This document shows positions 5,501-55,318 of a stretch of 64,000 nt of DNA, piece by piece. The notes beneath the pieces were generated by a model. That model did not search any database. It saw only the letters and a list, made by a program, of their open reading frames with translations, and was not told the DNA's origin. Origin of the DNA: Antedon mediterranea. Lineage: Eukaryota > Animalia > Echinodermata. The DNA lies in the NCBI RefSeq assembly GCF_964355755.1, contig NC_092673.1, positions 27,029,648 to 27,093,647 of the forward strand, given 5' to 3'. The position numbers and the translations under genes were made by a program. Each line of letters starts with the position of its first letter. Position 1 is the stretch's first letter.

Positions 5501-5594
5501 CAATTATTACTGTTCAACAAATATGTATACAAAAAGAAAACTCAGTATTAGTTACCCTAAAGTTGAAAATAATTTTGGCAGCTAAAATTATTGA

Positions 5595-7065: not shown

Positions 7066-7134
7066 ATGGAGACTCGTACGTTAGCATTTGTGGTGCTCTG
7101 CTGTGGCTTAATATGCCCTGGAAATTTCTCACCG
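7066..7134 (+). CDS. First coding exon of the EBR1-like gene: signal peptide METRTLAFVVLCCGLICPGNFSP
   Basis: ATG in good context (atcATGG), hydrophobic core, GTAAGT donor at 7135; phase 0 matches the next exon at 10710. Confidence 0.75.
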
Positions 7135-10100: not shown

Positions 10101-13100
10101 ATAATACATAAATACCTGACATATGGTACCAAGAATTCCATGCATGTGGCACGGGAATCGTACCACTTCCGTTCGGACTATAACAATCAAACATTCTTCA
10201 TGCCCTATTACTCTAGTAGGCCTACTGCTAGCCTAACATTTTTCCTTTGATGATGGAAGTGTTCCACAAAATACACCAAGGTATCTTTAGTTATAAAACA
10301 AAACAACTTAATTGCATAGCAGAGTTAGAACACCGAATTGCGAAAAAAAAAAGTTTACAAAGAGTCAACGCATTAAAAACTGACTTAAGCCTACAGTATG
10401 TCATGTTTTAATACTTATTTACACACAATTTTGTTTGTCTGTAAGATTCTATTCCTAAATATGAATAAATAGTGTTCGTACTGTGTGTCAGACACGACTT
10501 TGTTGAGTTACATTGTATGCTATACACATCATTTTTTTATGTTAGTATAATTAAGTAAAAATATTCCTAATTCAATTCAACGTAATAATGATGTAAACCC
10601 CTCTGAGATTATACTTACATAATAATACTTGATTTTTGCTGAGCAGTTTTGTCTAATATAAATTAAATACCCTATTAATAAGGAAATCCTCTGTTCTCTT
10701 ACGTAATAGTTACAACCTTTGCTGAGTGCTGAAGATGTTTCAAAGTATTATGAAGAAGGAAAGGGTAAGACCATACTTTGTATGCAAACAAGAAAGTAGC
10801 TTTGGTTACAAATCTTTCTAGCGTTTATCTTCATAAATAACTTTGTTTAAACAAACCGATTTTGTTTTAACAAAATCCATTATGTTTCAAATATTTTCAG
10901 CAAGATATGTTTTTAAGTGAAAAAAAAAGAATCGAGCTGTGAAGTTTGCGAGTCCAGTCATGAAAGAGATACTCGCTGAAGTTACACAATTTTAAACAAA
11001 ATCCGTTTTGTTTTTAAATAATAGGAACAGATTACGAAGTGGTCGGTGTTGATTCTGACCATGGCTCGAAACGATACAATTTTGAGGCCTTTGGGCGAGA
11101 TTTGTCGATGATCCTACACGCCGTTGATGATGGTTCTGGCAAACACGAATGTCACCATGAAGGAAAGTTGGTTGATGGCTCAGATGCAAGCATTGCCATT
11201 GACACCTGCCATGGCTTGGTAAGCTATCACCTCTATTTCCCAAAACGATTACATAATCCAATCAAGGCCTAACTAATAAGATTGGAAGACTTTCAGCATT
11301 AAATGTACAGTATTACTGGAAACTCAGCCTAAAACTGTGTCTACACTATCAAATTTTATGTGACAAAAAATGTGATGTGCCCATATATGGACATAATGAT
11401 ATCATATCAATACCATATTTGAGAGTGTCACTACCAAATTTGGTCATTTTTTTTTTGTCAAACTAGTTTGATAGTGTAGACAAAGTTTAAATAAAATATA
11501 CATCCGATTATCTGTAGGCCTACTGTTCTTCACGTTATGATGATATGGAGAAATTTTAATAGGCTACAAAAAATCAGCTATAATTATCCCTTCACAACAT
11601 GAAAAGTTAGAAAAATCTATTCCTGACGACAGTATATTTTCCTAAGGTAGAAACTTTTTCAGTTGTTTCATAATCATTAAAATTAATTTTCTGCTTTTTA
11701 ATTGTATTTGTGTTTTTCAGACTGGTTATATAAGTGTAAACGGTGAACAATACTTTATCGCTAAGCTTAGTAACGAGCATGCACGTAAGGTGATGACCGA
11801 CTTTGAAGACCCTCATATAGTCTTCAAAGGGAATCCATTGAACTCTGACATGAAATTGAGCAGGAATCGTCGTTCGATTACAAAAAGACCAGAACAAAAA
11901 TACGCTGAAGTTAATGTTTACGCTGATGTGGCTGTACTGTCTGAACAATTTCAAAGCGAAGTTGACAACTTGCTTGTGGTATGTCTTTATTTTACATCAC
12001 ATATTATGAGGTAGCCAATCCATTTTCAACAAAGACGAATAAAGCATGCATGTGTCAGGTGTTGCGGTAAAAATGTTTAGACCACCACCTTGAACTATCC
12101 ACTTTATATCACTTTGTTATCGATTTTTTTTCCATCTATCAAATTTTGGTTACGTCATGTAATAATTAACTTTTTTTCTGCAGGAAATCAAATCATATTT
12201 TGAAACTTTTACCACCATCGTTACCGATAATAGGCCCATAAACTTTAATTTTAGGCCCGTGGCAACTGTTACTTCGGTAAGTATTTTTAATTCATGTTAT
12301 GAATTTAGTTATGGTTTGTGAACATTCGCATGTTGATATTGATAGTTTTCGTAAATAAATACGTTAGGTATGTCAAATTAAAACAAAATTATATAAATAA
12401 ATACATAACAATAACAAAACACAAACAAAAAAATGGTATTGGTTTTACGTTCTTGGTGGATTGGATATATTATGTCAACGCGTTTTTAAGTCCAACGGTG
12501 ACGTGTTTTGCTTAATGCTTAACGAAACAACACATTTCGTATAATATTATAAGGGTTGGGGAACTTGGGGAAAACCGAGAGCAGTTGTTACGTAACAATT
12601 GTTTCGATATTTTTATAATGTGCTCTCAATGCTGTTTAGGTTGTACAAAATGCTGATGTTGATACCTACCTACAAAACTTCTGCAATTCTGTGGAGGATT
12701 CTGCTGATATCAGTCTTCTACTTACAAGGTAAATTTTATTATGAAAATTACTACTAGGCCCCCCTAGAGGCCTAGGCTAGGCCTACTAGCTAGTGTACTG
12801 ACTAGAGGGTGGTGACCGACTAAAGTAGGCCCTATGCACTACAGAGCCTCCACTTCGTGTTTAATATAAAATGCAAACAGAGTGCCTAGGGCTAGCCTAG
12901 TAGCTAGAGACAGGAGAAGTGCTATTATGATATGATGCTGCTCCTTGAAAACCTTATTTTATATAAATAACAGTATGTACTCATTCTCTGTTTCAGTTTG
13001 AATCTAACGTTTAATGGCAATGCAGGAATTACTGGAAAAGCTTCAGATTCAGACAACAAACGATGTGTAATTGCCGAATTTGGGGTCAATGTCACTTATG

Positions 13101-16100
13101 CACCTGTCAACATTGTTCACGAAATTGCGCACTTGTAAGTAAATATCTCTAGTAAATTCTCTATTCGTTGTTGATTCAATCATTTAATTTATTGGGATTT
13201 TATTCTTCTGAAAAATCAATTAATTAAATGCCTTCAAACAAGTTTTAAAAGTAAATTTTTTCAGGCCAACGTTATTTTTTCCCTTACTACATGCCCACAA
13301 CATATTAATAAATTATATATTTAAGGTGTTACATTTTTTTTGTTTTACAAACAGATTCGGTGTTAGGCATGATGGTGAACTTAGTACTTGCAAAAGTCCG
13401 AGCTATATAATGGCAGACCGACGACTGCCTGGATCAAAACCGGACAGATGGTCTAAGTGCAGTAAGCAAGACCTTGAAGCATTTTTACTAAGTGACGATT
13501 CTTTCTGGTTGGACAATGAACCTGCAACAATGTACCATTTTAATGATGTTCTCCAAGGAAGCGTACATGATGATATGGAACAATGCAAGAATGTCTTTCC
13601 AGAAACCACCAAAGTTGCAGGAATTGTAAAAAACAGTCAGGTAAACTTCAATATTTTTAAAGTATTTTTGATCTATTAGGATTTAGATTTAGTGGAAAAT
13701 TCATTGAGTACATAACAAACCTAGGTTTGTTCTTGAAAAAGAACTGGTGATGACATTTTAGTAGGCCTACTGAATTAGTGCAAGGAGGTGTTGCTTATAT
13801 TAGTAACTTACTAAATTGTTTTGTTGCATTAAGTTTATCAAAGACCTCAAATTATAACCATTTCAAACATAGGAGGCATCAATTTGAATAGAATTGATAC
13901 ACCAGGATTAAGTCTGTTTTGCAGTTTTTTACAGGGCAGTTCTTTTCATTATCATTTCTAGAACATCTGTCCGGAAATTAAGTGTGAGGACGACAGTGGA
14001 AATATTTACTCCATGATGAAACCTGCTCTTGCTGGTACAGGGTGTGGATCTCAATGTATCTGTATTATTGAGAAAGGTCATTACCTTCACAACACAAGAC
14101 AGTGTACAGGCCCCAATTGCGACATTCCAGAGTAAGTTGATGTAGCCTAATTGTTTAAATTTTTGACATTTACTTTCCTCTGTCATAATACCTACCTGCC
14201 TAAAAGGTAGTGGAGCTTGGTGATTAATATGCTCGAATCCCAAGGTCCAGGCTTCAATTCTGAACTAAGTCCAGAGTTAAATTCTGACCTAAGTCCAGGG
14301 TTCAATCCTGACCTTTACTTCCTGTGCCTCAAACAAAGGAGACTTAGTTTATAAGCATGATAAATTATAGTTTATCCATCCTGTAATTGATGAGTTACTT
14401 GCTTTTGGATGCGTATGAAATAACAAATAATTATTTTTAAAAAGCGGTGCTACTGTACAGAACATTTCTTATTAATTTTGTGAAAGGTTACCCATTATTT
14501 ATTTTTTAACCATTAGTATTCTTCAATGTTTACTATAGTTCTGATTATTTTCTAGTCCTTGCCTTGATTTGTATTTATGTTTACAATGTTTATAACTTAT
14601 TTTTGGGTAAATAAAAAAAATAAAGATAGATAATCACCAAAATTGATTCTTTAAATTTGAGGCAATAATTTTTACACATGAAAATACTATTTTTATTTCA
14701 AATAATTACCCAGTGAACGATTGTAAGTTATTTCACGCTGCTTGTTCTGCTTCACGGCACAATGAGTGGTGTTTTTGATAGTGTATTGTCAGTGATGTTG
14801 CAAATGATATATATATTTAACAGTAAATTTAAATTTTAAACCCCTTAGCTGGTTTAAATTAGATGTAAATGTGTATTTTTTTTATAGTACTTTTGTTATT
14901 GATGATTTTGTTTTTAATTGGAAGATATATTTGAGAACTAAAATAATTATTTTGAAAGATACTATAATGTCTGTCACTGTTTTCTTTCTGTTTGTTGTTC
15001 AGGTGGACCTCATCAGATTGGGGTGCTTGTGTGGACTGCACTCGGGAACGCTCAGTCTTATGTGTACTTATTGACGCTGATACTGGAACTATTACCCTTG
15101 TATCTGACACAAGTTTATGTCCAGTTGAAGAACCTGCTTCGTCTGAAACCTGTAACTGCGATGCGACAGAATGTTCTGCAACATGCGGAGTCGACAATTT
15201 AACGTAAGTTATTTTAAACTAATATAATCATTGAAATTGAGATACTGTGTGCAGTACAGTTAATTAACCATATCATAAATAATCAGTTTAAATAAATATT
15301 CAGTGTGTCTGCCACCTTCTATCTGAAGTTCTAATGTAGTAGTATGTGCCGCATAATTTTCCCTATCAGGTTAAAGGCCCATTCACACTAGGACGATAAC
15401 GATGGACGATAAATATATAAACATGCATTGGCACTGTCAGTTCACAAAAGATCAGTATTGTTTGTATCTGAAAATGACATTAAAAAAGGGACACGATAGT
15501 AAATAACAATCAACCATGCACTATTCATCATTTCTGGCTTAAGGCCCATTTACATTAGGACGATAACGATGGACGATAAATATATAAACATGCATTTTTT
15601 TTACATAAAACAAAATAAATTAGAAAGGTTTTCGTTCTAGAACTATAGGATAATCATTTATGCTGTCTTTGATAAAAATAATATTTTTAAAATTCCAATC
15701 AAATGACGTCATGATAAATAAAAACAATCAAATCGTTGTATTGTCACGATATTATTGCTCTTACTAATCATGACGTCATTTGATTGGACGTGTGAAAATA
15801 TCATTTTTATCAAAGGAAGCATATATGGTAATTCTATTGTTCTAGAATGAAAAGTGTTTATATTTCTTTTGTTTTATGTATGAAAAATGCACATTTGTCT
15901 ATTTATCGTCGATCGTTATCGTCCTAGTGTAAATGGGCCTTAAGCCAGAAATGATGAATAGTGCATGGTTGATTGTTATTTACTATTGTGTCTCTTTTTT
16001 AATGTCATTTTCAGATACAAACAATACTGATCTTTTGTGAACTGACAGTGCCAATGCATCTTTTGTGAACTGACAGTGCCAATGCATCTTTTGTGAACTG

Positions 16101-19100
16101 ACAGTGCCAATAGTGATCTTTTGTGAACTGACAGTGCCAATAGTGATCTTTTGTGAACTGACAGTGCCAATAGTGATCTTTTGTGAACTGACAGTGCCAA
16201 TAGTGATCTTTTGTAAACTGACAGTGCCAATAGTCTTTTCAGTGCCAATAGTCTTTTCAGTGCCAATAGTCTTTTCAGTGCCAATAGTCGAAAAATAGAA
16301 CCAAAATTAATTTCTCTTTACTTATACATAGAATTTTTTTTATAAGAATTAAAACAAAAACGTTTAAAAAAATGTTTTTTTTTCAGTTATATGTATGTAA
16401 CAGGTAGCTTTAGCGCATGCGGTGCAGCTTGCGGTGCGTCCGTGCAAACTAGATCCGTTTTATGCCAGAATAGCAATGGAGTGACAGTTGACAACTCATT
16501 CTGTAGCGGCCAAACAGTGCCATCGTCATCTCTGGAATGTACCAACTATGTTAATTGTCAGTATCAGACTGGAAGCTATGGAGGTGTAAGTAGTTTTATC
16601 TCATTCGATTTATTCAATTTCAATAAACAAAGAAAACATAACAATAACAAAATTCATATTGACTGTTTGACATAGATGTGCATATCGATTCAAAGTGATA
16701 TATGCCTTTAATTTTTGTTGATCTTATAACAAGTCTGGTAGCCTAGTGCTTAGAATACTTACTGTCATACAGAAAGATCCATGTTCGATTCCTGTACTAG
16801 TCCACAAGCTTTAAATGAGTGCTTAGGAAGAATGAGGCGGTGTTGCCATCCTACCACATAATGCCAAGGCTTAGTACAGCTCATTCTCCTACATTCAAAA
16901 TAGAGAGCTTTTGATTTGCGACAACCAACCTATATATATATGATATAAAAATTTAATCTGTAACTCTGACAGAGTGTTCTAGATGGCATATGATAAATAA
17001 ATGCCGATTCAAAATAAGCGGGCCTTCGAGTTGTTAATGAAGGCTTGTCTGACCATTCCAACATTATCTAGAACTTGTTTGAATAACGTGTTCGTATTTC
17101 TACCACGCTTCGAGCATTTGTCATCTTGGAAGAATAGCTTTTTCGTCATCTGATCATTATCAGATCTAATCAGATGTGCAGCATAATTTCGTTGCTGGGT
17201 TTTGATGAATGTAGATAAATCACATGTCTTACATATATTGTGAATGTCGATGTTGGTGTAATACAGTTTATAACATTCATCGTCAAGTGTTTTTTCGCCG
17301 ATAACCATTACGGATCATTCCTAGGTCAGGACAATTGATGTGTCGTCGGGATTACCCGTCGTCGGTCATCACTGGACCTAGAAACCATTAAACCTGTGTG
17401 AAGGTGGAGAGCGAGGACACAATACCTCTGCATTTGCACAATGAATTAACATGACATAGTTTGCTGGTCGGTTCGTCTCAAATCAAAAGCTCCGTAATAT
17501 GAACACATGACTAACCTTTACCGTATAACAATATGTTCTGATTTTTTATAGTGTTCATTTACATGTGGGGCTGGATTTCAAACAAGGACAGTGACATGTG
17601 TAAATGCAGTAACCGGTGCCCTTGCTGACGACAATTCGTGCATATTGGCTGGCCTTACCGCGCCGTCTGCCACACGAGCTTGTAATAATGGCAACTGTCC
17701 TACTACTACTACTTATATTTACGTTACTACTCCTTTCTCAGATGTAAGTAAATAATTCTATGAATTTTGTTAAGGATTAATTAAATTACTCACAATCTGT
17801 TTATTTATACACCTCTTTCTGTGTGCGTGTGTGTAGATGATGAGTCTTTGTAGTGGGAATAGAAATAGAATTGAAGAACATTATATTAGAACAGCAATTT
17901 AACAACAGTTTAATGAATACGCATAAATTGTTTAATCTCATTAATGTCTCATAACGATAGTCTAAAAATACATGTTCTTTCACTGTACCCATTGTCGGAG
18001 CTTAAAATCTGTAAAGATGTACCCATTTGTAAAATTAAACGTTGAAAACACTCAACAATTCCTTTTATAAAATAATGAATAATGATTCGATCAACGGTTT
18101 ACATTAGTTTACATAATAGTGTTTTTTTGTACCAATTTTGATGTATTTAAAAAATTTGTTTTTAAAATAGTATTTTAAAAAATTGATTTGCATAATTGCC
18201 TACTTTGTAATCAGAATATATCTGTCCGTCTTCTGTTCAGTTTTGGTTGTTATATATAATTTTTTCTGTAAATGATCTTTTTTAGTGTTCAGTAACTTGC
18301 GGGACGGGTGAGCAAACACGTACCGTGTCTTGTTCAATTCAAGAAACCAGTGCAATTGTTGATAACAGTTTCTGTTTAGCTGCTGGGCTTAACGAGCCAG
18401 GTACATCCCAAGTTTGTACGCTAAGTGCTTGCCCAGTTCAAACTGTTGCCTTTACTACGGGAAGTTTTGATGATGTAAGTTATTTTTTAAATAAATCAAA
18501 ATACAAATTAGAAAATGAACATTTGGTGCATTATTTTTATATAAATCAATCAGTAGCTGAATCTCAATGGAGGTACATATAAAATAAGCACTGAAAATTG
18601 ACAATGCTGTGGGTATCAGTGGCTGGATCTCAATGGAGATACAAAATAAAATAAGCACCGACAAAATGACAATGCTATGGGTATCAGTAGCTGAATCTCA
18701 ATGGAGGTACATATAAAATAAGCACTGAAAATTGACAATGCTGTGGGTATCAGTAGCTGAATCTCAATGGAGGTACATATAAAATAAGCACTGAAAATTG
18801 ACAATGCTGTGGGTATCAGTGGCTGGATCTCAATTGAGATACAAATAAAATAAGCAAAATTCTAAATACAAATGATACAGTATTAAAACAGCCAGATAGA
18901 AATCGCAGAGCTTTTGAATAACGCTAACCCTTTTAAATAAACTATATAAAAATATGAATTTTACTATTTTATTTAACAAAAAGTTTACTGAAAAAACTGA
19001 TAACAGAATTTAGAAACTGAGAATTTAAAAACAGCATTTAAAGTTTACAATTACAGATCTGAATATACAATAATGTGCCATTAAAGAAAATATTATGATA

Positions 19101-37100: not shown

Positions 37101-37912
37101 AACAGCCTACCACATGTTTTAATGCATTTTTTATTTTATAGGTGACTTTTAACTTTAGTATTACTTAATAATTTTTTTTTGATTACCTACTACACTATGC
37201 AAACCTTTACTAATAATTGTACGGTTTAATTTACATTCTTAGTTTCTAGCTTATTTTATCATTCCATTGAACATCAAGTAAACAGTATTAAAATTAATTT
37301 TGACTAATCTAAAGCTCTGTCTACACTATCAAACTAGTTTGGCAAAAAAGTGTGATGTGCTCAAATATGGTAGTGATATTCATCATGTTCATATCATGGG
37401 CACAGCACATTTTCTTTCTCATATAATGTTTAAAGTATACAAAGGAGAGCAACAAGGTGTTCCTGGGACACATCTTATTTTCATAGGTTGAAAGTGCTTG
37501 AATTATTATCTATTGATGACTTGTTTAAATTACATAGACTTTCATTAGGATTTAAGGTGTTGAAAGGTTACTGTCCCCATTCTTTCAATGAGTATATTAA
37601 AACTAGTGAAAGATGTCCGGGTAGGCTTTTACGTTGGAATTCGAAAGGCAATACTTTTCATAATTCTGTATTTGTTTCCTTTCCTAGACTATGGGAGCAA
37701 ATACCAAATGACATAAAAGATTCACAAACAATTTCAATATTTAAGGCTGCTCTAACAAAACACTATATTTCATGTTATGTATAATTTATTTGTATTTTTC
37801 TTGTATATGATTTTATCTTTAACTGATTATATTGTATGGAGTGAGTGCAGAATCTGTTTGGGCTTTAGCCTATTCTCATTCCTGGTTATTTTTACATTGA
37901 TGACCGAATAAA

Positions 37913-37943
<31 letters not shown>

Positions 37944-40900
37944 AGTGTAGACAGAGCTTTAGCATTTAAGCTGATAACATATTTGTAGTGTGTATATATA
38001 CAAATGGAACTCAATGTGTATGTTTAAGTTAAATTTTTGCTTTCCCAACAGCGTGTAATATGAACATTACACTTACAGAAACCATGCTGATCAGCGTAGA
38101 CAACTATGTTAATAATGAAGACTGTACATACACAATCAATTCTGATGGCTGTTTTTATATATTTTTTACTCAATTTGATTTGGAACCTGTGGACAATGAC
38201 GGCAATTGCTTGGATTACGTACAAGTAAGAATTTTATTGTTCGAATTAGGATAGATAAAATATGTTTGGTATTTATATATATATCTGTGTCAGTAAATTT
38301 TATTTATATATCCATTGAGATTCAGCCACTGATATCCACAGCATTTTCATTTTCTCCAATAATATACTGGTACTTAATTAATGATTAATGATGCCGAGAA
38401 TGTTAAAGAGTCGCTATCCAATTGAGTTTAAACTATACAATGAAAGCCCCAGTGGTCTAATTGTTAGGACAGGTGCATATCAAGCAGAAGGTCTGGGTTC
38501 GAATCTCTGTTGGGCCAACGTTTTCTCATTCTCACAGATTTCCTCATCTTATCGTTTCAGATTAATTAAATTTCAGTATATCACCGGGTGGTTTAGAATT
38601 AAATTTCTATACCTAATGTGTTTGTATACTGTATATATATATATATATATCACATTAGGCATAGAACATTAATCCTTAACCGCCTGGTGATATACTGAAA
38701 TTTAATTAATTTGAAACGATAAGATGAGGAAATTTGTGAAAATGAGAAAAAGTCGCCCCAACCGAGATTCGAACCTGGAACCTTCTGCACTAACATGAAG
38801 ATTCTTTTAATAACTCTAATCGCGTCAAGGAGCTATGTAATTGGTCAGATTAATTAATTGTCTTTTCATGAGATCCCTACATGTATAGAGACTACATATG
38901 CCATTATTCCCAATATGGACACCCCTCGAAAGGAAAATAGAATAGTCAAGGCACCGTAGCGGGCCATATATACTTTTTTTTATTTTATTCTTGATTGTCA
39001 GGCACAAATAACAACGTAAAAAACATGACAGCGGTGCAGCACCCTGGGGATTTACACGAGTGCTAAGCACTATCAAATTGGCTCTCCATATTGCACAAAT
39101 ACGTCTCTCATGCATAATTGATTTTTTGTTTGTAGATAACAGATGTCAATGAACCATTACTAAACAGGACGTTGTGTGGCAGTGATGAGATAGAGTGGAC
39201 CTCAGCTTCCAACCAAGGTGTTATCTATTTTAGATCAAATGAAAATGTAACTGCTTCAGGATTCAGATTTATAATAACTGATGGAAATTGTGCTGAATAC
39301 GCTTATTATGTTGGTCCATGGAGCGCGGTAAGTTTGTAGGTTTTATACAAATACTGTAACTGCACATGTGACCACCTAAGTTACATCTTTGATGATCCCT
39401 TGGTAATATAATCAACTATTTTCTGAAACTTTCTGAGTCCCAAAATCAAATTCCGAAAAAACCTATTCTGAATACCAGACTTTCCGGAAAGCCTAACTTT
39501 ATTAGGCCAGCCCAAAGTTGTTCGGTATTGGGAGAGTTGATTGATTACAGTAGAAGAAATTCATTTATATAATTATATAACTTTCAGTGTCCATGTGGCG
39601 ATGACTCAGTAGTACAGGCAGAACAGACTAGAGAGGTGTATTGTTTACAATTGGCTAATGACGCTCAAGTAGATGACTCACAATGCGAAGGTGATATACC
39701 AGTTATGACCCAACCTTGTGAATCAGAACCGTGTCAAGGTAAGATGACCTATTTATATATATATTTATTATTGTTTTTAATATACAAAAATTAAATGCAA
39801 CATTGATATAAAACTGATGTCATACACATAGTGGACATGCAAATCGAAAAGTCTTTTGATTTTTGTGTCTGGGAAGGACTTGATCCACAGAAAAAAACCC
39901 AGCAAGGTAGAGTCAACCACCTAAACTATTATTAATTGTACATTAGGATTTAAACAAGTTTCTTATTGTTGTTAATCAGAATATTTATTCGTAATTCATT
40001 TCTTTAATAGATTGCTATGTGTTAGTAGAAATGCTAGAAGAGACCTATACCCTCCTTGTTACCGCTGAAACCTACGTAAACAACTATAGATGCAATTGGG
40101 ATATTTCTACAGTTGAAGGAATGTGTTTGCAAATATTTTTTATAGATTTTGCTCTAGAAGACAGCGAAGGTTGCCAAAACGATGTCTTAGTGGTATTGTT
40201 TTTTTTTTATTTTATATGAATTATTCAAATTTTAAATTGATTTAATTATTATAAATGTAATGTTTTGTAACTTAGGAAAGGTTAGATTAATTCTTGTACT
40301 TATGTTTAACTAATTTTTTGGTTTGATTGTGCAAACTACATTAGCCTGTGTAGTAGTAATGCATTGGTAGCTGCATGTATTAGTATAATGTAAAACATTT
40401 TATTTTTATTTATTTATTCAATTTCTGCCAAAGAAAAACACAAAACAAATATAAAAGGCAAGGAAAGACCAAACAGGTGCTAAATAGTTGGTTGGTCAGA
40501 AACAGAGCACTGAAAAAAAACCAAAAACAATTACATTCTACAATTCAAGAAAGCGACCAACTACACACATTTTCAACATCAAAATTATTTTAAAAAGAAG
40601 TATTGAGATAATTTAATAATCTGTTTTTGACGCTTCTGTTACTCTTCTCGTCAGATTCAAAGTGAAGGCATTGAGGAGCTATTCTGTGGATCAGAATCTC
40701 CACCATCACTGACAACAAGTACAAACAGTGTAGAGTTTACCGTTCGTACTGATAACAATATCACTGATGATGGTTTTAGAATTCTGGTAGACCCGACAAC
40801 ATGTCCCGAATTTGGCTATGTTGCTGGTGAATATGGTGAAGTAAGTATTCATTGTTGAACTTTTATGTGTTTTCCTGTTCTATAATAAATACTGTATCTG

Positions 40901-43900
40901 TTTTTACACTTATTTTTATTGTTTATCTAATGCTGTTGCTGCTATAATATATTATAAAAATAATATTTTAAAATTTAAATTTTGATAATTAATAGTATAT
41001 ATTTGTATAAAATTTTATATTTGTAATATTTTTCTATGGTTGTTTGTGTTGTTTTTTTTTTAGGTGCTCCCGTTCATATGTAATTAAGATTGTTTACTTG
41101 CTTTTTTATTGTTTGTAAATCACAGGTTTGCCCGCTGGGATTGTTGTGATTATTTTTTTATACCGAATAAATAAATAAAAAAAATAAAAACTATGTTCCA
41201 AATAAAACTTATTATTTGTAAAGACTAGGATTTATCTCATTGTCTGTAGAGCTACTTTACAGTTACTGTTCTTATCATATTTATTCATTTATATGTACCT
41301 TATCAAAAAATGTCATGGCGCATTACAGATAACTAAAACTAAATGTTAAGCAATGTTATGAAAAAAAGATTTAAATGAGCTGTGGGGCCAGCAACATGGA
41401 AGGACTGATTCCCATGGTGGTGATTTGTTGGAGGAAGAAAGGTCAGGTTCTTATAGCCATCTTATTCTGGAATGCCACCTGACGTCAATCTATGCTTTTT
41501 ATTTGTTGGCCATTTCTTAATAATAAAGAGTGGCCTAATTGGCCAAAATAAGACTGGTTTCTTTAAGGGTCTTGTGTACAAAATTAAGACATCAAAATTG
41601 AAGATAGATTACGTACATGCATAATTGCAATGCTTTAATATTGAGCATTAAAGCCTATCTGTGCATAGCACTACTATACTACACTATGAAGCTTAATGCA
41701 ATGAGAGTTATTTGTAATTAATTTAATTAATTTATAATTTTTAAATTAGTGCTCAAAATCTTGTGGTGGTGGTGAGCAAATACGAACTGTACAATGCCAA
41801 AGACTTCAAGAGCCTAATGTTGGAGAAGTACAGATGGATAGTGCTTGCAGTGGTGACGCACCAGATAATTCCAGACCATGTGACAATGATGAATGCCCAC
41901 GTATGTTTTCGTATGCTACATTTGTTTATTTATTTTACATTATTCATCCTCAATTGAGGAAATTCGGATTAGGATCTCAACAGCATCAAGTTCAACACCT
42001 ACCATATAAACAACAGAGGTAGGGATGGACCAGTTGACCTAGGTCAAATTAACCCACAAATATGCGCTGGGTTGTTTAACTTACACACAAGTCAAATGTG
42101 TATGATGGACCTCCTTATCCGAGAAGACAGAACTATAGTAAACGAGAGCCATCAATACCATATGGTCCGCATAGGCCACTTCAATATCATTCAGAAAAAT
42201 GGTGTAAAGTGTCCGCAAATTATGTCTGCCTATTTCGTGAACTATTCATGGACATTTCATTTCCCAAGTGAGCTGTGACAACTTTTCACAGGTTGCCACA
42301 CATCATGATGATGATCATCATCAAAGGATCATATTTGTTATGATCAAAATTAACAATATATAAAAAATTAGTTTAATGAAAAACAAATAATAGTCAGAAA
42401 TCACAAGAAATGTTAATTGAAAAAATGAAACAAGATTTTTCTTTTTCAGCTTGTTTATTTGAATATGTACCATCTAACAACTTGATAAACACAGAGCCAT
42501 TTGAAAATAACACAGAATGTACCTATCGAGCTGAAGGTAGGGAAGACATGTGCATTCAAATCCTTATTGCCTCTTTGAATTTTGCTGAGCCTGATGAAAA
42601 TGGAGAATGCACCACCGACTATCTTCAGGTAACGTTCTCATTTCCTGAATTTATGGCTGTTTTTTTTTTTTGGGTTACTCAGAGACACAAAAACAAATTT
42701 CTGATGATTTTCATCCATTTGTGTAAAACTGCTTTTTTTCTACCAATTTTAATTTTCAATATTAATGGAATTTTATGCAGATTAAGGATTTGAACAATCC
42801 TGATTTCTTACTCACTTACTGTGGCGTGATTAACGCATTGGTACTAGATTCAAGTTCAAATGAGGTAGAGATTGTTATCCACGTTGAAGATGGTATGGAC
42901 AAAGTTGCAAGTTTTGCATTCGTAGAGGAATCTGTCTGCAGAACCTATGAATTTGGTGAAGTAAGTGTTAGTTCAGTTTTAGGATCACCTTTGTTACCGA
43001 GGTGACAAAATATTCAGAGTATAGCTTTTTAATCACCCAGAAATTTAACTGAAATTGCGAAACTGAATATTATCATCATTTTTTTTTAAATACTGTTGTT
43101 GAGGATTGAAATAGTACCCCCCTCTTCATCTCGAAAGATGTATTAGGTTAGTTTGTGTACACTGTGCCTACAGTTGGTAGTGCTATTTGAGAAGACTCGT
43201 TCTACCAACTCCAGAACCGATTGGCCACTCTCTGTCTGTTACCTTTTTTTTATAACAAAAATCATCGGTCAAGAAACAATTATAGGGTGCTCAGTCACCT
43301 TAATCTGGGAGTTCTAAAGATGACTGATTTAATCAAAAGAATTATTAGTTTAGTTTGTGAGACATTACTACTTATTTTTCTTTTAGTGTTCACGAGCATG
43401 TTCAAGCGGTGTGGACGAAATAGATGTAGATTGTATTCTGATTGGAGATGGAGACATTGTAGAGGACTTCTATTGTTATGGCTTAGAAGGGTATAATGGA
43501 AGCAAGTCCTGCCCAGAATTTGACTGCCCAAGTAAACAAAATATAACTTTGCATTTTTGATTGGAATATGTGACACCAGATACACAGTACAAGCATATCT
43601 ACTACTAACATTGATAGATACATGCAAAACAGATTCATTCAGTCTTATGTAACATGACACTTTAAAACAGCTAAGGTTTGAAAGACCTCCCAACTCGTTA
43701 TTTCATTTTACCTCCCGATGATATGTATAATTTCTCCCGATATTTTGGATAAACATAACAAAATATCACGATATGGCAATAGTCTACCAATATTGCGCGT
43801 CATTTCCCTCTAAAATACAATTTTCTTTACATTTTTTACCTTTGGTACGCCATGAAATACCCATGTTTACTATTATAGATATATTTATAAATAATGAATT

Positions 43901-46900
43901 AGCGTCCGAATTTGAGGTAATTTTGGAAATATAATAGCGCCCTCTATAGTTTAGATATGCTTTAAAACATTTCACTTTTCCAAATCGGGAGGTCTGTGAT
44001 GCAGCTTTCAAACTCATACCGTCCTGTTTTGTACACGTCCTGTTCTCACCATTCTCTAATTGTCAATAGCAAGAATTTTGTGTACACATCTCTCTAAAGG
44101 CCTGTTTTTTTGTTTTTGTAGATTGCAATGGACAAGTGATCACAGACTTTTCTGTTGTTAGATTGGCTTTTACTAATAATGAAGATTGTAGTCATAATAT
44201 AATTGTTAGTAGTATGGAATGTCTTCTCATCACTTTTGAGGTGTTTGATGTTCCAGATGGACCAAGTGATGCTTGCCAAGATTATTTAATGGTAGATCCT
44301 GTTTATATATATTTATACAAACTGCCAAGGAAAACCATAAAAAGTGAATTCATTATTAAAGGCAAAATCTGTTAATACAAATTGGGGGAAACCAGGTATT
44401 TTCGCTGAAAAGTTACGACTCTTCTATTATACTGTATTTACAACAACGATATTCTTTTATAGCTGTCAAGCCCTGTATATATACACTGTGTGATAGAGAT
44501 TAGCGATTATGTATGAAAGTGATGATGATTCTGTTGTTGTTGCACTCATAAACATTCCTTATTTGGCAGTGCCTATTATACTGTATTTACAATAATTATA
44601 CTCTTTTATAGCTGTCAAGCCCAGAATATACACTGTGTGATAGAGATTTGACTGGAATGCAATATTTTTCAAATGATCAATTTTTGGCGATTATGTATCA
44701 AAGTGACGGTGATTCTGTTGTTGGAGATGTCGTTCTCCGATTGGAAAGACGTAACTGTACAGGTTTTATGTTTACCGTTGGTGAATTTGGAAATGTAAGT
44801 TGAATTTTTGTTGTTTTATTTTAACCAATTACTGTGACCATCATCATCATTTTTTTATCATAATATCAAATTTATCACAGTCTTCCCATTCATCATCATC
44901 TTCCCATTCATCATCATCATCCCATTCATCATCATCTTCTTCCCCTTTATCATCATCATCTCCCTTTCATCATCAGCATCATCATCATCTTCCCATTCAT
45001 CATCATCATCATCTTCCCCTTCATCATCATCATCATCTTCCCTTTCATCATCATCAGCATCATCATCATCTTCCCATTCGTCATCATCATCATCTTCCCA
45101 TTCATCATCATCTTAACCTTTCATCATCATCATCATCATCTTCCCATTCGTCATCATCATCATCTTCTCATTCATCATCATCATCTTCCCATTCATCATC
45201 ATCATCTTCCCATTCATCATCAGCATCATCATCATCTTCCCATTCATCATCATCATCTTCCCATTCATCATCATCCCATTCATCATCATCATCTTCCCAT
45301 TCATCATCATCATCATCTTCCCTTTCATCATCATCATCATCATCATCTTCCCATTCATCATCATCTTCCCATTCATCATCATCATCTTCCCATTCATCAT
45401 CATCCCATTCATCATCATCATCTTCCCATTCATCATCATCATCATCATCTTCCCTTTCATCATCATCATCGTCATCATCATCATCATCTTCCCATTCATC
45501 ATCATCATCATCATCATCATCATTTTCCCATTCATCATCATCCCATTCATCATCATCATCTTTCCTTTCATCATCATCATCTTCCCTTTCATCATCATCA
45601 TCATCTTCCCTTTCATCATCATCATCATCATCTTCCCATTCATCATCGTCATCATCATTCCATTCATCATCATCTTCCCTTTCATCATCATCATCATCAT
45701 CATTTTCCCTTTCATCATCATCATCATCATCATCTTCATCATAATTATCCCATTCATCATCATCCTTATCTTCAACTTCACTTTTAGCAAATTCATTCAA
45801 TTTTTTATTGATGCTTTTTGTGATAACCACCAGAATATTTAATTGCAGTGTTCAGTTCCATGTGAAGGGGGTACAAGAACAAGAGTTGTGGAGTGCCTTG
45901 ACGATGACGGTACTATTGTGGATGATCTGATGTGTGAAGGTATTAAACCTCATACGTCAGAAGAGTGTAATGCAGGCCAATGTGAAGAGAGTTACTATGA
46001 ATATGTAATTGGTGAATTTGGTGACGTAAGTAGATTATTTTTTTATTTTTTAATGTTATAAATGTTCAAGTTTATTAGTTCAAAGGCTGTGTAGAAAATA
46101 CTAAAACAATTCTACAACATTGTACAATTAAAACAAGAGTATCAACATTGTATTTCCATGTAAATTACATATAACCTTACCAAGGAAGTTTGTTTGTTTG
46201 CCTGTCTCTATACAAGATATCTCAAAAAGCTCACATCTTCATCTGTAGGCTGGGAGTTTGTAGGGTTCGAATGAACCACCTTCTTTTTGAAGGGCCCATT
46301 TCAAACTAGTAAAGTAGTAAAATTGGTAGTATAGGTCTAACGCTGGACATTTTTTGCCCAATCTAGCTTAAGCCGACAAATTTCATCTACAAGGCAATTT
46401 AAAGCAATATTTGGCAGTATTCTCCTTTTTGGCCCCTAGTTCATTTAATCACCCCCTTTTTAGGAAAAATGAACCCACTGACTATGTGCTTGTCTGCTTT
46501 GACCCATACAAAACATTTATTTTATTTCAATTTAATGTACATGAGCCAGGATGTAACAAATTTATTAATCACAATAAAACAATTGGGACAGAAAAGAGAA
46601 CTGTTTTAAATGTGGGCAGAAACATCACTTGTAGTAAGGTCTACTTTTTAGTTCATAATCAGATAATAATTTTGTTTTTGCACTCTTATTAAGGCTCATT
46701 TTCAGAAATCAATATTTTATGAATATTATTAATGATTTTGTTATTGTTAATTACTTTCACAGTGTCAGGAAGTCGCCATCGGTTTTTGCGTTCGACAGCG
46801 AGATGTAGATTGTCAGAATAATGTCACGAATGTCGTTGTGGACGACAGTTTGTGCGAGGGAAATCCACCAGTAAGTGAGAACTGCAATTGTCCAGTATCA

Positions 46901-48016
46901 ACCACTGTTGCAGCAGAAGTTACAGAAGCTACTCCTATGACCACTACTGGACAGATGACCACTACTGGACAGATGACCACACAGGCGATGACTACAGATT
47001 CATCAGGTTTGTGAAACATATGATTATCTATTACTACTTACACAGTGGTTAATCGAAATGCAAACCTTTAAATAAACAATATTCCTTGATGAATTAGACG
47101 CCGATATTTGATGCGGGTTGTCATCTGGCTGTGTAATGTTTTTTTGTAAAAAGATAATTCCAATATCAAGACATTTGTTGGTGTTTAGCTAAGCAGTGTA
47201 TATAACCATTCTGTAGTACCACTTTATCCATACCCTTGTGGGATTATTTCTACCTAGCTGTTTGGAATCTTAATTGTCATATCCATTCAGATCTTGTAGT
47301 GACCAAAACAAATGTTGCTTTATTCTTTCAGAATGTGGCGGTGTCTTTTCTGAGAATGATGATACGGGTACAATCACTTCACCGAATTACAGTGAGAATT
47401 ATCCAGCAGATATAACATGTGTTTGGAATTTCACAGTTCCAGTAGGCTCCAAGATTGTCTTCACTACAATGGCATTTACTGTTGGTGATTCTGGTGATTG
47501 CGGAGCCGACTCTCTTACAGTATGTAATATCATGTGCTTTCTCTGTTTGATTGCGCGATAAAATCTCAATTTTTTTTGTTGCAAATATCTAGGCCTACAT
47601 ACTCTCTACATTTTGGGAAATATTTTGTCCAGTTTTTAAGCACTCTATTAACGTACTAAGTCTACCCTAAAATTAGATTTTTTTTCCTGAGTTTGAATTT
47701 TGTACCAATGGGTATAATACTAAGACCTATTATCCACACACTGAACATTCAGTTACTGTACTTAAAACTTAATATTTTGTCTTTTAGCATCAAAGATAAA
47801 ATCAGAATATTTAAAATTAATGCTGTTTTTATTTTTCAGTTTGATGATTACGTACAAGAGGTAATACAGTATTGTTCTTCTATTGATGACATGTTCCTTC
47901 CTTCGACGCTAGACCGAGCAGGTGAAAATGCTGACTTCTGCACGTTAACTTTTACAACCAACAGTGTCAACGAGGCCAGCGGATTCTCCTTATCGTATGA
48001 GTACACGGCTGAATAA
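7066..48016 (+). CDS. EBR1: EBR1-like (egg bindin receptor 1-like) ADAMTS-related secreted protein: SP-propeptide-M12B metalloprotease-disintegrin-like-(TSP1)x11-alternating CUB/TSP1-Thr linker-CUB; 56 exons, ~3,349 aa
   Basis: Hand-spliced GT-AG exons, all phase compatible, total 10,050 nt: 7066-7134, 10710-10764, 11031-11218, 11721-11978, 12184-12276, 12640-12728, 12997-13134, 13355-13640, 13962-14131, 15003-15203, 16387-16585, 17552-17743, 18286-18474, 19156-19335, 19706-19891, 20402-20550, 21039-21252, 22404-22558, 22841-23051, 23643-23984, 24495-24683, 24952-25099, 25420-25601, 26136-26289, 26582-26766, 27538-27732, 28357-28495, 28837-29036, 29218-29415, 29866-30007, 30283-30470, 31462-31659, 31976-32290, 32973-33164, 33607-33748, 33983-34173, 34511-34705, 34971-35121, 35625-35788, 36067-36267, 36757-36895, 38052-38224, 39136-39327, 39588-39738, 40011-40192, 40655-40840, 41750-41900, 42450-42628, 42781-42960, 43387-43531, 44122-44291, 44612-44794, 45849-46025, 46763-47006, 47332-47519, 47840-48016(TAA). 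An ADAMTS-like head followed by alternating TSP1/CUB is the known EBR1 architecture. Gene existence is near-certain; the EBR1 name is inferred from architecture only. Confidence 0.85.
7580..7765 (-). repeat. Dispersed ~60-bp satellite element, ~2 copies plus conserved flank
   Basis: Reverse complement of the same unit followed by aaaacagccagaaaga. Confidence 0.85.
10710..11978 (+). CDS. Reprolysin (M12B) pro-domain exons ending at a furin site
   Basis: Translation includes FEAFGRDLSMILH...CHHEGKL...IAIDTCHGL|TGYISVNGEQYFI...PHIVFK...RNRR^S, typical ADAM/ADAMTS propeptide motifs plus an RxRR site. Confidence 0.85.
11333..11488. mobile_element. MITE family with AGCTCTGTCTACACTATCAAAC-type TIRs (PIF/Harbinger-like)
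   Basis: tgtctacactatcaaa...tttgatagtgtagaca; further copies at about 20238-20375, 20572-20690, 28157-28300, 33783-33930, 37313-37958, 52308-52395, 55319-55440 and 62758-62930. Confidence 0.8.
12184..14131 (+). CDS. M12B metalloprotease catalytic domain plus ADAMTS disintegrin-like module exons
   Basis: YLQNFC...DISLLLT; HEIAHL|FGVRHD across intron 13135-13354; Met-turn YIMA; WSKCS; EQC; PALAGTGCG. Confidence 0.9.
15003..23790 (+). CDS. Array of 11 tandem ADAMTS-type thrombospondin type-1 repeats (about one per exon)
   Basis: Repeated CS(V/L/F)TCGxGxQTRxVxC...VDxSxC...P...C...CP translations in exons at 15003, 16387, 17552, 18286, 19156, 19706, 20402, 21039, 22404, 22841 and 23643. Confidence 0.92.
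15542..15940. mobile_element. Palindromic MITE with AGGCCCATTTACA...TGTAAATGGGCCT TIRs and TWA flanks (Harbinger-like)
   Basis: Long imperfect inverted arms; an additional partial left end at 15375-15428. Confidence 0.8.
16028..16289. repeat. Tandem repeat with 28-30 bp units shrinking to 18-bp units
   Basis: tcttttgtgaactgacagtgccaatagtga repeated about 6 times, then tcttttcagtgccaatag about 3 times. Confidence 0.95.
17009..17308 (-). mobile_element. Non-LTR retrotransposon 3' ORF2 fragment (RTE-like C-terminus)
   Basis: YAAHLIRS...TKKLFF...SKRGR resembles the GHxxR...KRxRGRP C-terminal motif of RTE-type LINEs. Confidence 0.55.
18545..18915 (-). repeat. Dispersed ~60-bp satellite element, ~5 copies plus conserved flank
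   Basis: Same unit on the minus strand; flank aaaacagccagatagaaatcgcagagct. Confidence 0.9.
20238..20375. mobile_element. MITE copy (ctacactatcaaac family)
   Basis: TIRs plus internal gtgatgtgcccatatatggacat...catatcactaccatattt. Confidence 0.8.
21390..22200. repeat. Minisatellite: 56-bp dimeric unit grading into ~29-bp monomers
   Basis: ctaatcatctaggagtgtgttcccctaccttataaactagggatgtgtttccctac about 10 times, then tttcatctaggtgtgtcttcccctac monomers. Confidence 0.95.
23790..46025 (+). CDS. Alternating CUB/TSP1 ('EBR-type') repeat region, 12 CUB domains
   Basis: CUB motifs (SPNYPNNY...C...FxxFxLE...C..DYL...FCG...F.SD......GF) are split over two exons and alternate with TSP1 exons; one CUB-CUB tandem at 25420-27732. 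Confidence 0.92.
24250..24403. mobile_element. Tc1/mariner-like MITE remnant (TACAGTAGA.CCC.TATTAAG terminus)
   Basis: Ends cttaataggggtctactgta; related pieces at about 3400-3540 and 26410-26433. Confidence 0.5.
25655..25890 (+). mobile_element. tRNA-derived repeat (SINE-like); cloverleaf at 25690-25762 with ATC anticodon; ends in (TA)n
   Basis: A box TGGTCTAATGG, B box GGTTCGAATC, stem TCTGC-ATATCAA-GCAGA, downstream TTTTT; flanks shared with copies at 38405-38650 and 38650-38790. Confidence 0.8.
26833..27087 (+). repeat. Dispersed ~60-bp satellite element, ~3 copies plus leader
   Basis: Leader agctctgcaatttctttctggctgttt followed by units. Confidence 0.9.
27178..27368. repeat. 21-bp tandem repeat (~9 copies) amplified from the MITE internal motif
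   Basis: Unit catatcactaccatatttgag, also present in 1-2 copies inside ctacactatcaaac MITEs. Confidence 0.92.
28157..28300. mobile_element. MITE copy (ctacactatcaaac family)
   Basis: agctctgtctacactatcaaac...gtttgatagtgtagacaga. Confidence 0.85.
30510..31371 (+). repeat. Dispersed ~60-bp satellite element, longest array (~13 near-identical copies) plus leader
   Basis: Leader agctctgcaatttctttctggctgttt followed by 60-61 bp units. Confidence 0.95.
32601..32885 (-). mobile_element. tRNA-head SINE with (TTA)n tail
   Basis: Reverse complement of the element at 58072-58363; B box GGTTCGAATCC. Confidence 0.85.
36943..37085 (+). mobile_element. Deu-domain-like SINE 5' fragment
   Basis: Degenerate B box gttcaaatcc followed by ccgtctttcagatgagatgttaa, resembling the Deu-domain core as recalled from DeuSINE consensus. 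Confidence 0.5.
37436..37940 (+). mobile_element. 5'-truncated CR1/L2-group LINE 3' end with (TTA)n tail, nested inside a MITE
   Basis: ORF 37488-37784 (...SVFVSFPRLWEQIPNDIKDSQTISIFKAAL...) matches the WNxLP...SLxxFK C-terminal motif; aataaa plus (tta)n tail; MITE TIRs at 37313 and 37958. Confidence 0.8.
38405..38790. mobile_element. Two tail-to-tail copies of the tRNA-derived repeat around a (TA)n tract
   Basis: + copy at 38405-38650; 5'-truncated minus copy at 38650-38790 (ccgagattcgaacctggaaccttctgc). Confidence 0.8.
44424..44540 (+). pseudogene. Decayed tandem duplicate (pseudo-exon) of exon 44612-44794, including its acceptor
   Basis: tattatactgtatttacaa...cttttatAG ctgtcaagccc...tacactgtgtgatagagatt..gcgattatgtat.aaagtga.g.tgattctgttgttg recurs at 44574-44722; this copy has a frameshift, an internal deletion and an in-frame TGA. 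Confidence 0.85.
44836..45772. repeat. Compound (CAT)n microsatellite interrupted by CTTCCCATT/CTTCCCTTT
   Basis: About 900 bp of catcatcat runs inside intron 44795-45848. Confidence 0.97.
46763..48016 (+). CDS. Last three exons: degenerate TSP1, Thr-rich linker, terminal CUB domain, stop codon
   Basis: STTVAAEVTEATPMTTTGQMTTTGQMTTQAMTT, then CGG...GTITSPNYSENYP...FTTNSVNEASGFSLSYEYTAE-TAA; no transmembrane segment seen. Confidence 0.88.
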
Positions 48017-50104: not shown

Positions 50105-54161
<4,057 letters not shown>

Positions 54162-55318
54162 GTAAGCACCAATTAATGAATATAACTTGTGTACCATACT
54201 AACAAGGCTTCATTTACACATGGGCTTTTGTGTCTCAATGTTGTCCTGTTCAAAATCTCGTATTTTGGAGCTTGAATTGAACAGGTCGCATTATTTTATT
54301 AAATGCCAATGGGAGGATACCTCAGACTAAATATTGTATTAGAGGTCACCTAAAAAATATTATATTGTACAATAAATAATAAAGAACATTAAAATCAATA
54401 ACACTCTATTTCTAACTAAAATTGAGCTGTTTTACAATCTAGCAGTTTTTGTGGCATGATATCTAAATGACAAATCAGCGTGGCTGCAAAATAAGATTAT
54501 AATATTTGATATCACTAATTAAATCTGTACAGCACATGAAATCTATGCATGTACTCATTTCGTGAACCCATTAGAGAAATAGAATAAGTATTCATTTTTT
54601 TTCTTTTGTAGCTTATACATCACCTTTATTAATCACATACCATATTTTACATTTGTACACTTTACTACTGTATACAAGTATTTTTACGCATAAACAAATA
54701 ATGTTTTCACTTTAAAATGACAAGAATAATGGTTAAATTCAAAAACCCATTGGCTGGCAGCCAATTTTTTTTATATATTACAGTTTTTCAGGTAAATAAT
54801 TTTTGATCAAAGTGAAAAATTATTATGCTACATCAAAATGGCATCAACAAAAAAATGTTAAATTATTTTTTTCACCACAATATATCTTTAAAGTATGATA
54901 ATTTTGTAAAATTGAAAGCCTATCATGTTGTACAATAGGGTAATCCCTGCATCGTATCATAGATGATGCCATGTACAAGCAATCAATTATGCATAATATG
55001 TGATGATATTAATACCCGATTAAACATGCATAAAGGAACTGACAAACGAATGCTTCATCACCTTTGATAACAAACCGAATATACAACTCACTTTATAGCC
55101 AATTTGTTATTGTAACAAAGCTTACGGCTTAGACGGTTATTAATGCTCAATGAACTTTGTAATAACGAACCGTGTTATGTTCTCTGAAAAACCGTGTTTT
55201 ACAACCTTCTTTTATGCTTCAACTTCAAATTTTTGCTCGAATTGTTGACGTACATTTTTGTAAATATTCACATTTGTTTCTGATCCCGAAATCAGGTATT
55301 ATTTATTGTGTTAATCCT

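What the first reader, a model, noticed from the sequence alone, without database searches (positions are those of the whole stretch)
7066..48016. Complete ~3,350-aa EBR1-like gamete-recognition receptor candidate (ADAMTS head, 23 TSP1, 13 CUB) hidden in 56 short exons
Seen: dozens of ORF fragments splice into one uninterrupted frame from signal peptide to stop. Known: sea-urchin EBR1, the egg receptor for sperm bindin, is an ADAMTS-like head followed by alternating TSP1/CUB repeats, whereas ordinary ADAMTS proteins have at most a few terminal CUBs (ADAMTS13 has two). Inference: this is an EBR1 orthologue or a parallel expansion. If the host lineage has no described bindin/EBR1 pair (e.g. a crinoid), it would point to an undescribed sperm-egg recognition system with an unknown ligand.
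Basis: partly seen in the sequence, partly recalled or inferred. Interest (0 to 1): 0.85.

Follow-up and report, generated by a model that had tools for sequence, protein, structure and literature searches.

The report
Feather-star orthologue of egg receptor EBR1
This is a real, spliced 56-exon gene of a feather star that is the direct counterpart of the sea-urchin egg protein EBR1 and likely helps eggs bind sperm; the family reaches back to acorn worms, and in this lineage the enzyme head of the protein has changed unusually fast.

Summary
Confirmed. Fifty-six GT-AG exons at 7066-48016 give one open frame: signal peptide, prodomain, reprolysin domain with an intact zinc motif, Cys-rich domain, 23 TSP1 and 13 CUB. 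RNA contigs show 8 of 55 splice joints directly and move one acceptor by 6 nt, giving 3,351 aa. The host is a crinoid: the neighbouring DDAH exon is 97/98 identical to Antedon mediterranea and 90/98 to Anneissia japonica. The gene is the EBR1 orthologue, not a parallel expansion. It shares the domain order T11-C-T-C-C-(T-C)n with S. purpuratus EBR1. Its protease falls in a 100/100 clade with echinoid, asteroid, crinoid and hemichordate sequences. It is syntenic with an unnamed A. japonica model. The twist: the protease, the best-conserved part in three urchin and sea-star pairs (70-84%), is only 39% identical between the two crinoids (repeats 55-62%). It has lost two near-invariant cysteines but keeps the catalytic motif. 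Ovary expression, protease activity, bindin presence and the ligand were not tested. This is a new member of a known family.

The parts
7066..48016 (+). EBR1 orthologue, 56 coding exons, 3,351 aa
7066..7134 (+). exon 1, predicted signal peptide
   Evidence: most hydrophobic stretch of the protein; 65% identical to the A. japonica N-terminus; intron contig starts 30 nt before the donor and nothing covers 6900-7104 (inference)
10710..11873 (+). prodomain (exons 2-4), ending in the furin-type site R-x-R-R at 11862-11873
   Evidence: joints 2-3 and 3-4 seen in RNA
11874..13530 (+). reprolysin (M12B) domain, exons 4-8; fast-evolving; lacks two near-invariant Cys (one replaced by Trp at 13506-13508)
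13118..13373 (+). zinc motif HExxHxxGxxHD, split by intron 7 (13135-13354); Met-turn follows in exon 8
   Evidence: joint 13134-13355 in RNA
13531..14131 (+). Cys-rich (disintegrin-like) domain; no ADAMTS spacer follows
15003..23784 (+). 11 tandem TSP1 repeats (exons 10-20)
23785..27700 (+). CUB1-TSP12-CUB2-CUB3 block, the echinoderm EBR1 signature
   Evidence: same order in 7 of 7 full-length echinoderm orthologues
27701..44770 (+). nine TSP1-CUB (EBR) repeats; the CUBs carry extra cysteines, as in S. purpuratus EBR1
44771..48016 (+). TSP22, TSP23, Thr-rich linker (exon 54), terminal CUB13, stop; no transmembrane segment; AATAAA about 340 nt past the stop
50105..54164 (+). neighbouring DDAH gene (4 exons found); synteny and lineage marker

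Best explanation
The locus is the expressed crinoid orthologue of echinoderm EBR1, and it likely encodes a secreted egg-coat glycoprotein whose long acidic TSP1/CUB arm would bind a sperm acrosomal protein while its zinc-protease head is predicted to remain active but remodelled. SHOWN: gene structure, splicing of the head, orthology, synteny, no transmembrane segment, intact HExxHxxGxxHD and Met-turn, fast protease evolution. INFERRED: (1) secretion and furin removal of the prodomain; (2) O-fucosylation of TSP1 repeats (16 POFUT2-type sites; consensus recalled) and deposition in the vitelline layer of oocytes, as for urchin EBR1; (3) multivalent binding of a bindin or bindin-equivalent by the strongly acidic repeats; (4) the head trims the sperm ligand or coat proteins, with a changed substrate pocket in this lineage. 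Confidence in orthology is about 0.97; the number below is for the whole statement, including the egg-surface sperm-binding role.
For: The order T11-C-T-C-C-(T-C)n is shared with NP_999830.1 (S. purpuratus EBR1), two Lytechinus, Diadema, Acanthaster, Asterias and A. japonica. Protease tree of 31 rows: EBR1-like clade of 10 at 100/100; five alternative groupings with other ADAMTS rows rejected, p-AU 0.0003-0.0016. 23 of 23 TSP1 and 13 of 13 CUB best-match the same-index domain in A. japonica. A. japonica DDAH and EBR1-like models have consecutive accessions on a contig of the same length, 642,107. Spliced RNA contigs at depth 224-359 over intron cover of 5-9. EBR1 is egg/ovary-biased in M. franciscanus (PMC13672419, sections read); 'egg bindin receptors' are ovary-upregulated in Acanthaster (PMC9759900, passages) and listed among gonad sex-related proteins in Holothuria scabra (bioRxiv 2024.03.26.586852, passage). 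D+E 15.9% vs K+R 4.1%, like the acidic repeats reported for urchin EBR1.
Against: No tissue label for the RNA run. No crinoid bindin could be sought. The species-specific block of strongylocentrotid EBR1 (HYR insert or near-identical repeats) is absent: maximum internal identity is 0.53 for TSP1 and 0.38-0.40 for CUB. Even in urchins, the egg receptor for bindin is called uncertain and EBR1 protease activity untested (PMC13672419). The protease has lost conserved residues: 34 of 45 near-invariant columns kept vs 40 of 45 in A. japonica. On the protease alone, a tree with the other nine EBR1 rows together and the window outside them is not rejected (p-AU 0.097).
Confidence: 0.6

Rival explanations
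1. The same orthologous protein is an egg-coat scaffold or processing enzyme (vitelline layer, fertilization membrane, or attachment of brooded eggs to pinnules) with no role in sperm choice. Bindin binding would be a later urchin and sea-star co-option.
For: The family is present in hemichordates. The repeats are old and not homogenised. The nearest named relative, A. mediterranea, broods eggs on its pinnules and has an ornamented fertilization membrane (bioRxiv 2024.01.30.577964, passages).
Against: Divergence between the crinoids is high (55% vs about 90% for DDAH), as is usual for recognition proteins. EBR1 is under positive selection in urchins (PMC5521101, passages).
Confidence: 0.22
2. 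It is a somatic extracellular-matrix protease (for example of mutable connective tissue) in crinoids, unrelated to gametes.
For: Intact zinc motif and furin site; ADAMTS genes are linked to echinoderm connective-tissue remodelling (PMC10381214, passages); RNA tissue unknown.
Against: Proteins named EBR1 or egg bindin receptor are ovary-biased or gonad-associated in three other classes.
Confidence: 0.12
3. The head is a decaying pseudo-protease under relaxed selection, and only the repeats work.
For: Branch 1.52 vs 0.41 for A. japonica in the head, but 0.37 vs 0.35 in the repeats. Two Cys found in 28 of 29 and 29 of 29 other rows are lost.
Against: All three zinc His, the catalytic Glu, the following Asp, the Met-turn and the W-S-x-C-S motif are kept. 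The two lost Cys are, from recall, partners of one disulfide. No difference was listed in 1,034 nt of exons 4-9 between run X1 and the window, against 27 in 3,575 nt of intron 1 (one comparison, list may be incomplete, weak). This rival concerns only the head and can hold together with the best explanation.
Confidence: 0.25
4. It is an independent TSP1/CUB expansion of a conventional ADAMTS gene.
For: Repeats beyond the N-terminal block do not map by position to urchin or sea-star repeats (2-3 of 13 CUB same index). No vertebrate ADAMTS13 row was in the tree.
Against: Shared domain order, shared CUB cysteine pattern, clade support and AU tests.
Confidence: 0.02

Closest known systems
Strongylocentrotus purpuratus egg bindin receptor 1 (NP_999830.1, 3,712 aa)
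   Same: Head with zinc motif, no spacer, T11-C-T-C-C-(T-C)n, terminal CUB, extra-Cys CUBs; same protease clade
   Different: No 883-aa HYR-containing insert; 23 TSP1/13 CUB vs 19/10; 28-40% identity by region; function untested here
Mesocentrotus franciscanus EBR1 (from PMC13672419; sequence not retrieved)
   Same: Signal, propeptide, reprolysin with zinc signature, Cys-rich domain, TSP1 run, CUB/TSP1 tandem, final CUB
   Different: 71 exons over 114.8 kb, 4,066 aa, 24 TSP1/17 CUB with a block of near-identical repeats; here 56 exons over 41 kb with no homogenised block
Anneissia japonica LOC117124937 (XP_033127166.1, 'uncharacterized', 3,396 aa)
   Same: Identical architecture, one-to-one repeats, next to DDAH
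   Different: Protease only 39% identical; A. japonica keeps both cysteines and the family motif just before the zinc helix
Hemichordate relatives: Ptychodera flava XP_070531950.1; Saccoglossus XP_006823538.1 + XP_006823537.1
   Same: Same protease clade, TSP1 run, then CUB/TSP1 repeats with extra-Cys CUBs
   Different: About 20 leading TSP1 and no CUB-CUB doublet; annotated as uncharacterized, ADAMTS20-like or cubilin-like
Conventional ADAMTS, including ADAMTS13 (two terminal CUBs; recalled)
   Same: Prodomain, reprolysin, disintegrin-like domain, TSP1 type
   Different: No spacer module after the first TSP1; interleaved CUBs; separate protease clade from the rows tested

Membership tests
EBR1 | ADAMTS-like head: signal, propeptide, reprolysin with zinc signature, Cys-rich domain | tested here: met
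EBR1 | TSP1 run, tandem CUB/TSP1 repeats, final CUB | tested here: met
   the first 15 repeat domains are in the same order as in NP_999830.1
EBR1 | Protease domain groups with named EBR1 | tested here: met
   clade 100/100; five alternatives rejected; exact place within or at the base of the clade not fixed by the head alone (p-AU 0.097)
EBR1 | Secreted, no transmembrane segment | tested here: met
   hydropathy scan: highest 19-residue window is the N-terminus (1.83), all others 1.58 or less; no signal-peptide predictor was run
EBR1 | Egg/ovary-biased expression | not testable with these tools
   one RNA-like run, tissue not on record
EBR1 | Species-selective binding of sperm bindin | not testable with these tools
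   no genome held; needs an assay
Strongylocentrotid EBR1 subtype | Species-specific C-terminal block (HYR repeats or near-identical CUB/TSP1) | tested here: not met
   also absent in the Diadema, Acanthaster, Asterias and Anneissia models, so not a family-wide feature
Classical ADAMTS | Cys-rich plus spacer module after the first TSP1 | tested here: not met
   no gap after T1; PF05986 absent from the 7 EBR1-like hits and present in the ADAMTS7/9/20 hits
ADAMTS13 subfamily | Protease groups with ADAMTS13 | tested here: inconclusive
   grouping with two ambulacrarian terminal-CUB ADAMTS rejected, but no vertebrate ADAMTS13 row was available
Active reprolysin metzincin | HExxHxxGxxHD and Met-turn | tested here: met
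Active reprolysin metzincin | Conserved cysteines of the catalytic domain | tested here: not met
   2 of 6 near-invariant Cys lost; that they form one disulfide is recalled, and one search found no paper
Active reprolysin metzincin | Proteolytic activity | not testable with these tools
   needs an assay

The most novel reading that the evidence does not exclude
EBR1 is an ambulacrarian-wide egg-surface receptor older than bindin: crinoids and acorn worms use it with a different sperm ligand, and in the Antedon lineage the protease head, not the repeats, has become the fast-evolving recognition or processing surface, possibly with the shift to brooding eggs on pinnules.
Probability: 0.2. Interest if true: 0.75.

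Novelty: new member of a known kind. Interest (0 to 1): 0.45.

Why it matters
The bindin-EBR1 pair is a textbook model of sperm-egg recognition, described from urchins and sea stars. A one-to-one orthologue in crinoids, and clade members in two hemichordates, date the receptor to the ambulacrarian ancestor. That makes two open questions testable: is the receptor older than its ligand, and does its protease work? The crinoid pair is a natural experiment, with the same repeat array but a strongly remodelled catalytic domain. In the searched library no listing described a crinoid or hemichordate EBR1 or bindin (listings only). [quoted passage not shown]

Tried and rejected
No whole genome was held, so no search for bindin or a second EBR1 copy. 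A homologue search with exon 20 found nothing, but only proteins up to 2,000 aa were searched. No run is on record as RNA; X1 behaved as RNA by its GT-AG joints. A candidate extra exon at 8450-8514 was rejected: it lies inside an unbroken depth-9 intron contig and the orthologue needs no such exon. An alternative 5' end was considered, because one contig runs from intron 1 unbroken into exons 2-4. In-frame stops lie just before exon 2 and exons 1-2 align with the A. japonica N-terminus, so I read it as pre-mRNA; not excluded. A 15-exon alignment misaligned and was not used. A PDB search with exon 8 gave only weak reprolysin and ADAMTS hits (4 at E up to 1). The Atlas did not hold the exon; with a short relative it returned ADAMTS6/13-like clusters. 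Sliding-window control of the rate test: 9 windows of 198 aa outside the head gave ratios of 0.46-2.88, one as high as the protease (2.7), so the relative-rate count alone is not unique. Earlier scan findings: none. The disulfide literature search was empty. No fold or complex job was run: the spliced head cannot be given as one reference and no ligand is known. Supplements of PMC13672419 were not opened; they may hold EBR1 exon tables. Passages from PMC9367165, PMC4063459 and PMC3605852 added nothing.
Full report
OBSERVATION. Reading the sequence and snapping exon ends to AG/GT gave 56 exons and one open frame of 10,050 nt. Exons: 7066-7134, 10710-10764, 11025-11218, 11721-11978, 12184-12276, 12640-12728, 12997-13134, 13355-13640, 13962-14131, 15003-15203, 16387-16585, 17552-17743, 18286-18474, 19156-19335, 19706-19891, 20402-20550, 21039-21252, 22404-22558, 22841-23051, 23643-23984, 24495-24683, 24952-25099, 25420-25601, 26136-26289, 26582-26766, 27538-27732, 28357-28495, 28837-29036, 29218-29415, 29866-30007, 30283-30470, 31462-31659, 31976-32290, 32973-33164, 33607-33748, 33983-34173, 34511-34705, 34971-35121, 35625-35788, 36067-36267, 36757-36895, 38052-38224, 39136-39327, 39588-39738, 40011-40192, 40655-40840, 41750-41900, 42450-42628, 42781-42960, 43387-43531, 44122-44291, 44612-44794, 45849-46025, 46763-47006, 47332-47519, 47840-48016. 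Exon 3 is given with the RNA-supported acceptor, which makes 10,056 nt and 3,351 aa. Random joins of intron pieces never had fewer than 165 stops in 1,000 trials.

TRANSCRIPTION. Five runs hold the stretch, none on record as RNA. Two were laid. X2 covers non-repeat bins evenly, like DNA; X1 holds spliced contigs. GT..AG joints displayed: 2-3, 3-4, 5-6, 6-7, 7-8, 8-9, 9-10 (15 of 23 joint rows shown) and 14-15 (15 of 792 shown). That is 8 of 55 introns, of the 24 that were laid. Joint 7-8 unites the two halves of the zinc motif, and 9-10 ties the head to the TSP1 array. A 681-nt contig equals 344 nt at exon 20 plus 337 nt, exactly exons 21+22 (arithmetic). Spliced contigs from exon 5 on have depth 224-359; intron contigs have 5-9. 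An intron contig starts 30 nt before the exon-1 donor, like those at the donors of exons 8, 15 and 22, and nothing covers 6900-7104; I infer that this donor is used. Against this: the exon 1-2 joint was not displayed, and one contig (depth 53) runs from intron 1 into exons 2-4.

ANATOMY. The N-terminus is hydrophobic, there is a furin-type site at residue 152, HExxHxxGxxHD plus Met-turn, and no membrane anchor; about 365 kDa, very acidic, 24 N-glycosylation sequons, 16 C-x2-S/T-C-x2-G sites. Order after the head: T11-C-T-C-C-(T-C)9-T-T-linker-C. The repeats are old: TSP1 mean identity 35%, CUB 24%. CUB3-12 carry extra cysteines.

HOST. The downstream gene is DDAH. Exon 1 is 92% identical to the crinoid Anneissia japonica and 52% to a sea cucumber, and 97 of 98 residues match Antedon mediterranea. 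The host is a feather star close to Antedon (inference). A. mediterranea broods externally (passages).

ORTHOLOGY. A profile of exons 20 and 33 against 1.84 billion representatives gave 2,104 hits, 150 listed. The top three are Ptychodera flava, A. japonica and Lytechinus variegatus proteins, all 'uncharacterized'. The Lytechinus head then retrieved S. purpuratus EBR1 (77%), L. pictus, Diadema, Acanthaster, Asterias and Saccoglossus at E 1e-94 or better, ahead of ADAMTS7 at 1e-44 (104 hits). All 7 full-length echinoderm proteins begin T11-C-T-C-C-(T-C)n like the window. In the reverse direction, the S. purpuratus head ranked A. japonica among the EBR1-like rows, but the window was not in its top 26 rows: a sign of its divergence, and a result against a simple reciprocal best hit. 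For the protease tree I named 34 rows and kept 31 (P0031 too short; P0079 and P0098 no hit); only 3 of the many ADAMTS7 hits were used. The ten EBR1-like rows form one side at 100/100, with the window next to A. japonica at 91/92. Placing the window with five other ADAMTS groups was rejected (p-AU 0.0003-0.0016); placing it outside the other nine was not (0.097). The T1-C3 repeats pair it with A. japonica at 100/100, and all 36 repeats map one-to-one. A. japonica DDAH and EBR1-like models are XP_033127165.1 and XP_033127166.1, on a contig of the same length, mirroring the window.

THE UNUSUAL PART. In three eleutherozoan pairs the catalytic domain is 70-84% identical, above the repeats (50-70%). 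Between the two crinoids it is 39%, below the repeats (55-62%). Relative-rate counts, window vs A. japonica, were 33/13, 36/12, 38/15 and 38/10 with four echinoderm outgroups, and 45/19 and 40/14 with hemichordates; these outgroups are not independent. Branches are 1.52 vs 0.41 in the head and 0.37 vs 0.35 in the repeats. Of 90 sites invariant in five eleutherozoans the window keeps 42 and A. japonica 63. Lost are a Cys present in 28 of 29 other rows, a Cys present in 29 of 29, a conserved Trp, and an Asp before the zinc helix; from recall, the two Cys form one disulfide and the Asp binds calcium. All catalytic residues remain. Caution: one of 9 windows outside the head showed as large a rate ratio, and no dN/dS could be computed. 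The changes are unlikely to be assembly errors: RNA contigs match exons 4 and 8 with 0 differences in 546 nt.

MECHANISM AND COMPARISON. By homology the protein is likely secreted by oocytes, furin-processed and laid into the egg coat, where the acidic repeat arm would bind an acrosomal protein and the head may cleave it. That last idea has been proposed but not tested for urchin EBR1 (PMC13672419). Bindin is essential in urchins, and EBR1 has no transmembrane domain (PMC8403831, first of two parts read). The locus has the build of EBR1 and is a member by architecture, phylogeny and synteny; the functional criteria could not be tested. It lacks the HYR or homogenised block of strongylocentrotids, as do the Diadema and sea-star models.

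PAPERS SEEN. PMC13672419: abstract, introduction, gene-annotation results and first part of the discussion. PMC8403831: first part. Passages only: PMC8830517, PMC9759900, PMC5521101, PMC10381214, PMC3605852, PMC9367165, PMC4063459 (no match), bioRxiv 2024.03.26.586852 and 2024.01.30.577964. [quoted passage not shown]

VERDICT. A real gene, a crinoid EBR1 orthologue and a new member of a known family. Interest 0.45, for extending the family to crinoids and hemichordates and for the remodelled protease head.

Noticed in passing
window 50105-54164: DDAH gene, four exons found; the last exon was not located; same neighbour as in A. japonica
   Followed up: partly
proteins P0007 and P0023 (Saccoglossus XP_006823538.1, XP_006823537.1): Consecutive models named ADAMTS20-like and cubilin-like that look like two halves of one hemichordate EBR1
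   Followed up: partly
proteins P0109, P0083: Short spacer-less relatives (head, 6-7 TSP1, one CUB) in A. japonica and another record; possible link between EBR1 and ADAMTS13-like genes
   Followed up: partly
proteins P0013, P0011, P0038: Protease-less proteins of 21-42 TSP1 plus one terminal CUB in a crinoid and two hemichordates
   Followed up: no
window 39588-44794 and 47840-48016: Exons 44-52 and 56 are less conserved against A. japonica (0.33-0.59) than most of exons 20-43: a second divergent zone where urchins have their species-specific block
   Followed up: no
window 46937-46996: 18-nt coding repeat in the Thr-rich linker before the last CUB; a Thr-rich linker is also in A. japonica but not in the urchin or sea-star models
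   Followed up: partly
window 5594-5804, 26891-27087, 30576-31371; 7580-7716, 18549-18856; 21393-22174; 44890-45764; 63291-64000: Minisatellites (66-68, 56 and 30 bp units) and an 875-bp TCA microsatellite, mostly intronic
   Followed up: no
window 11338-11482 and about 20240-20650: Very high-copy short dispersed element, MITE-like (summed contig depth above 100,000)
   Followed up: no
window 9190-10764: An RNA contig joins the 3' part of intron 1 to spliced exons 2-4: pre-mRNA or an isoform without signal peptide
   Followed up: partly
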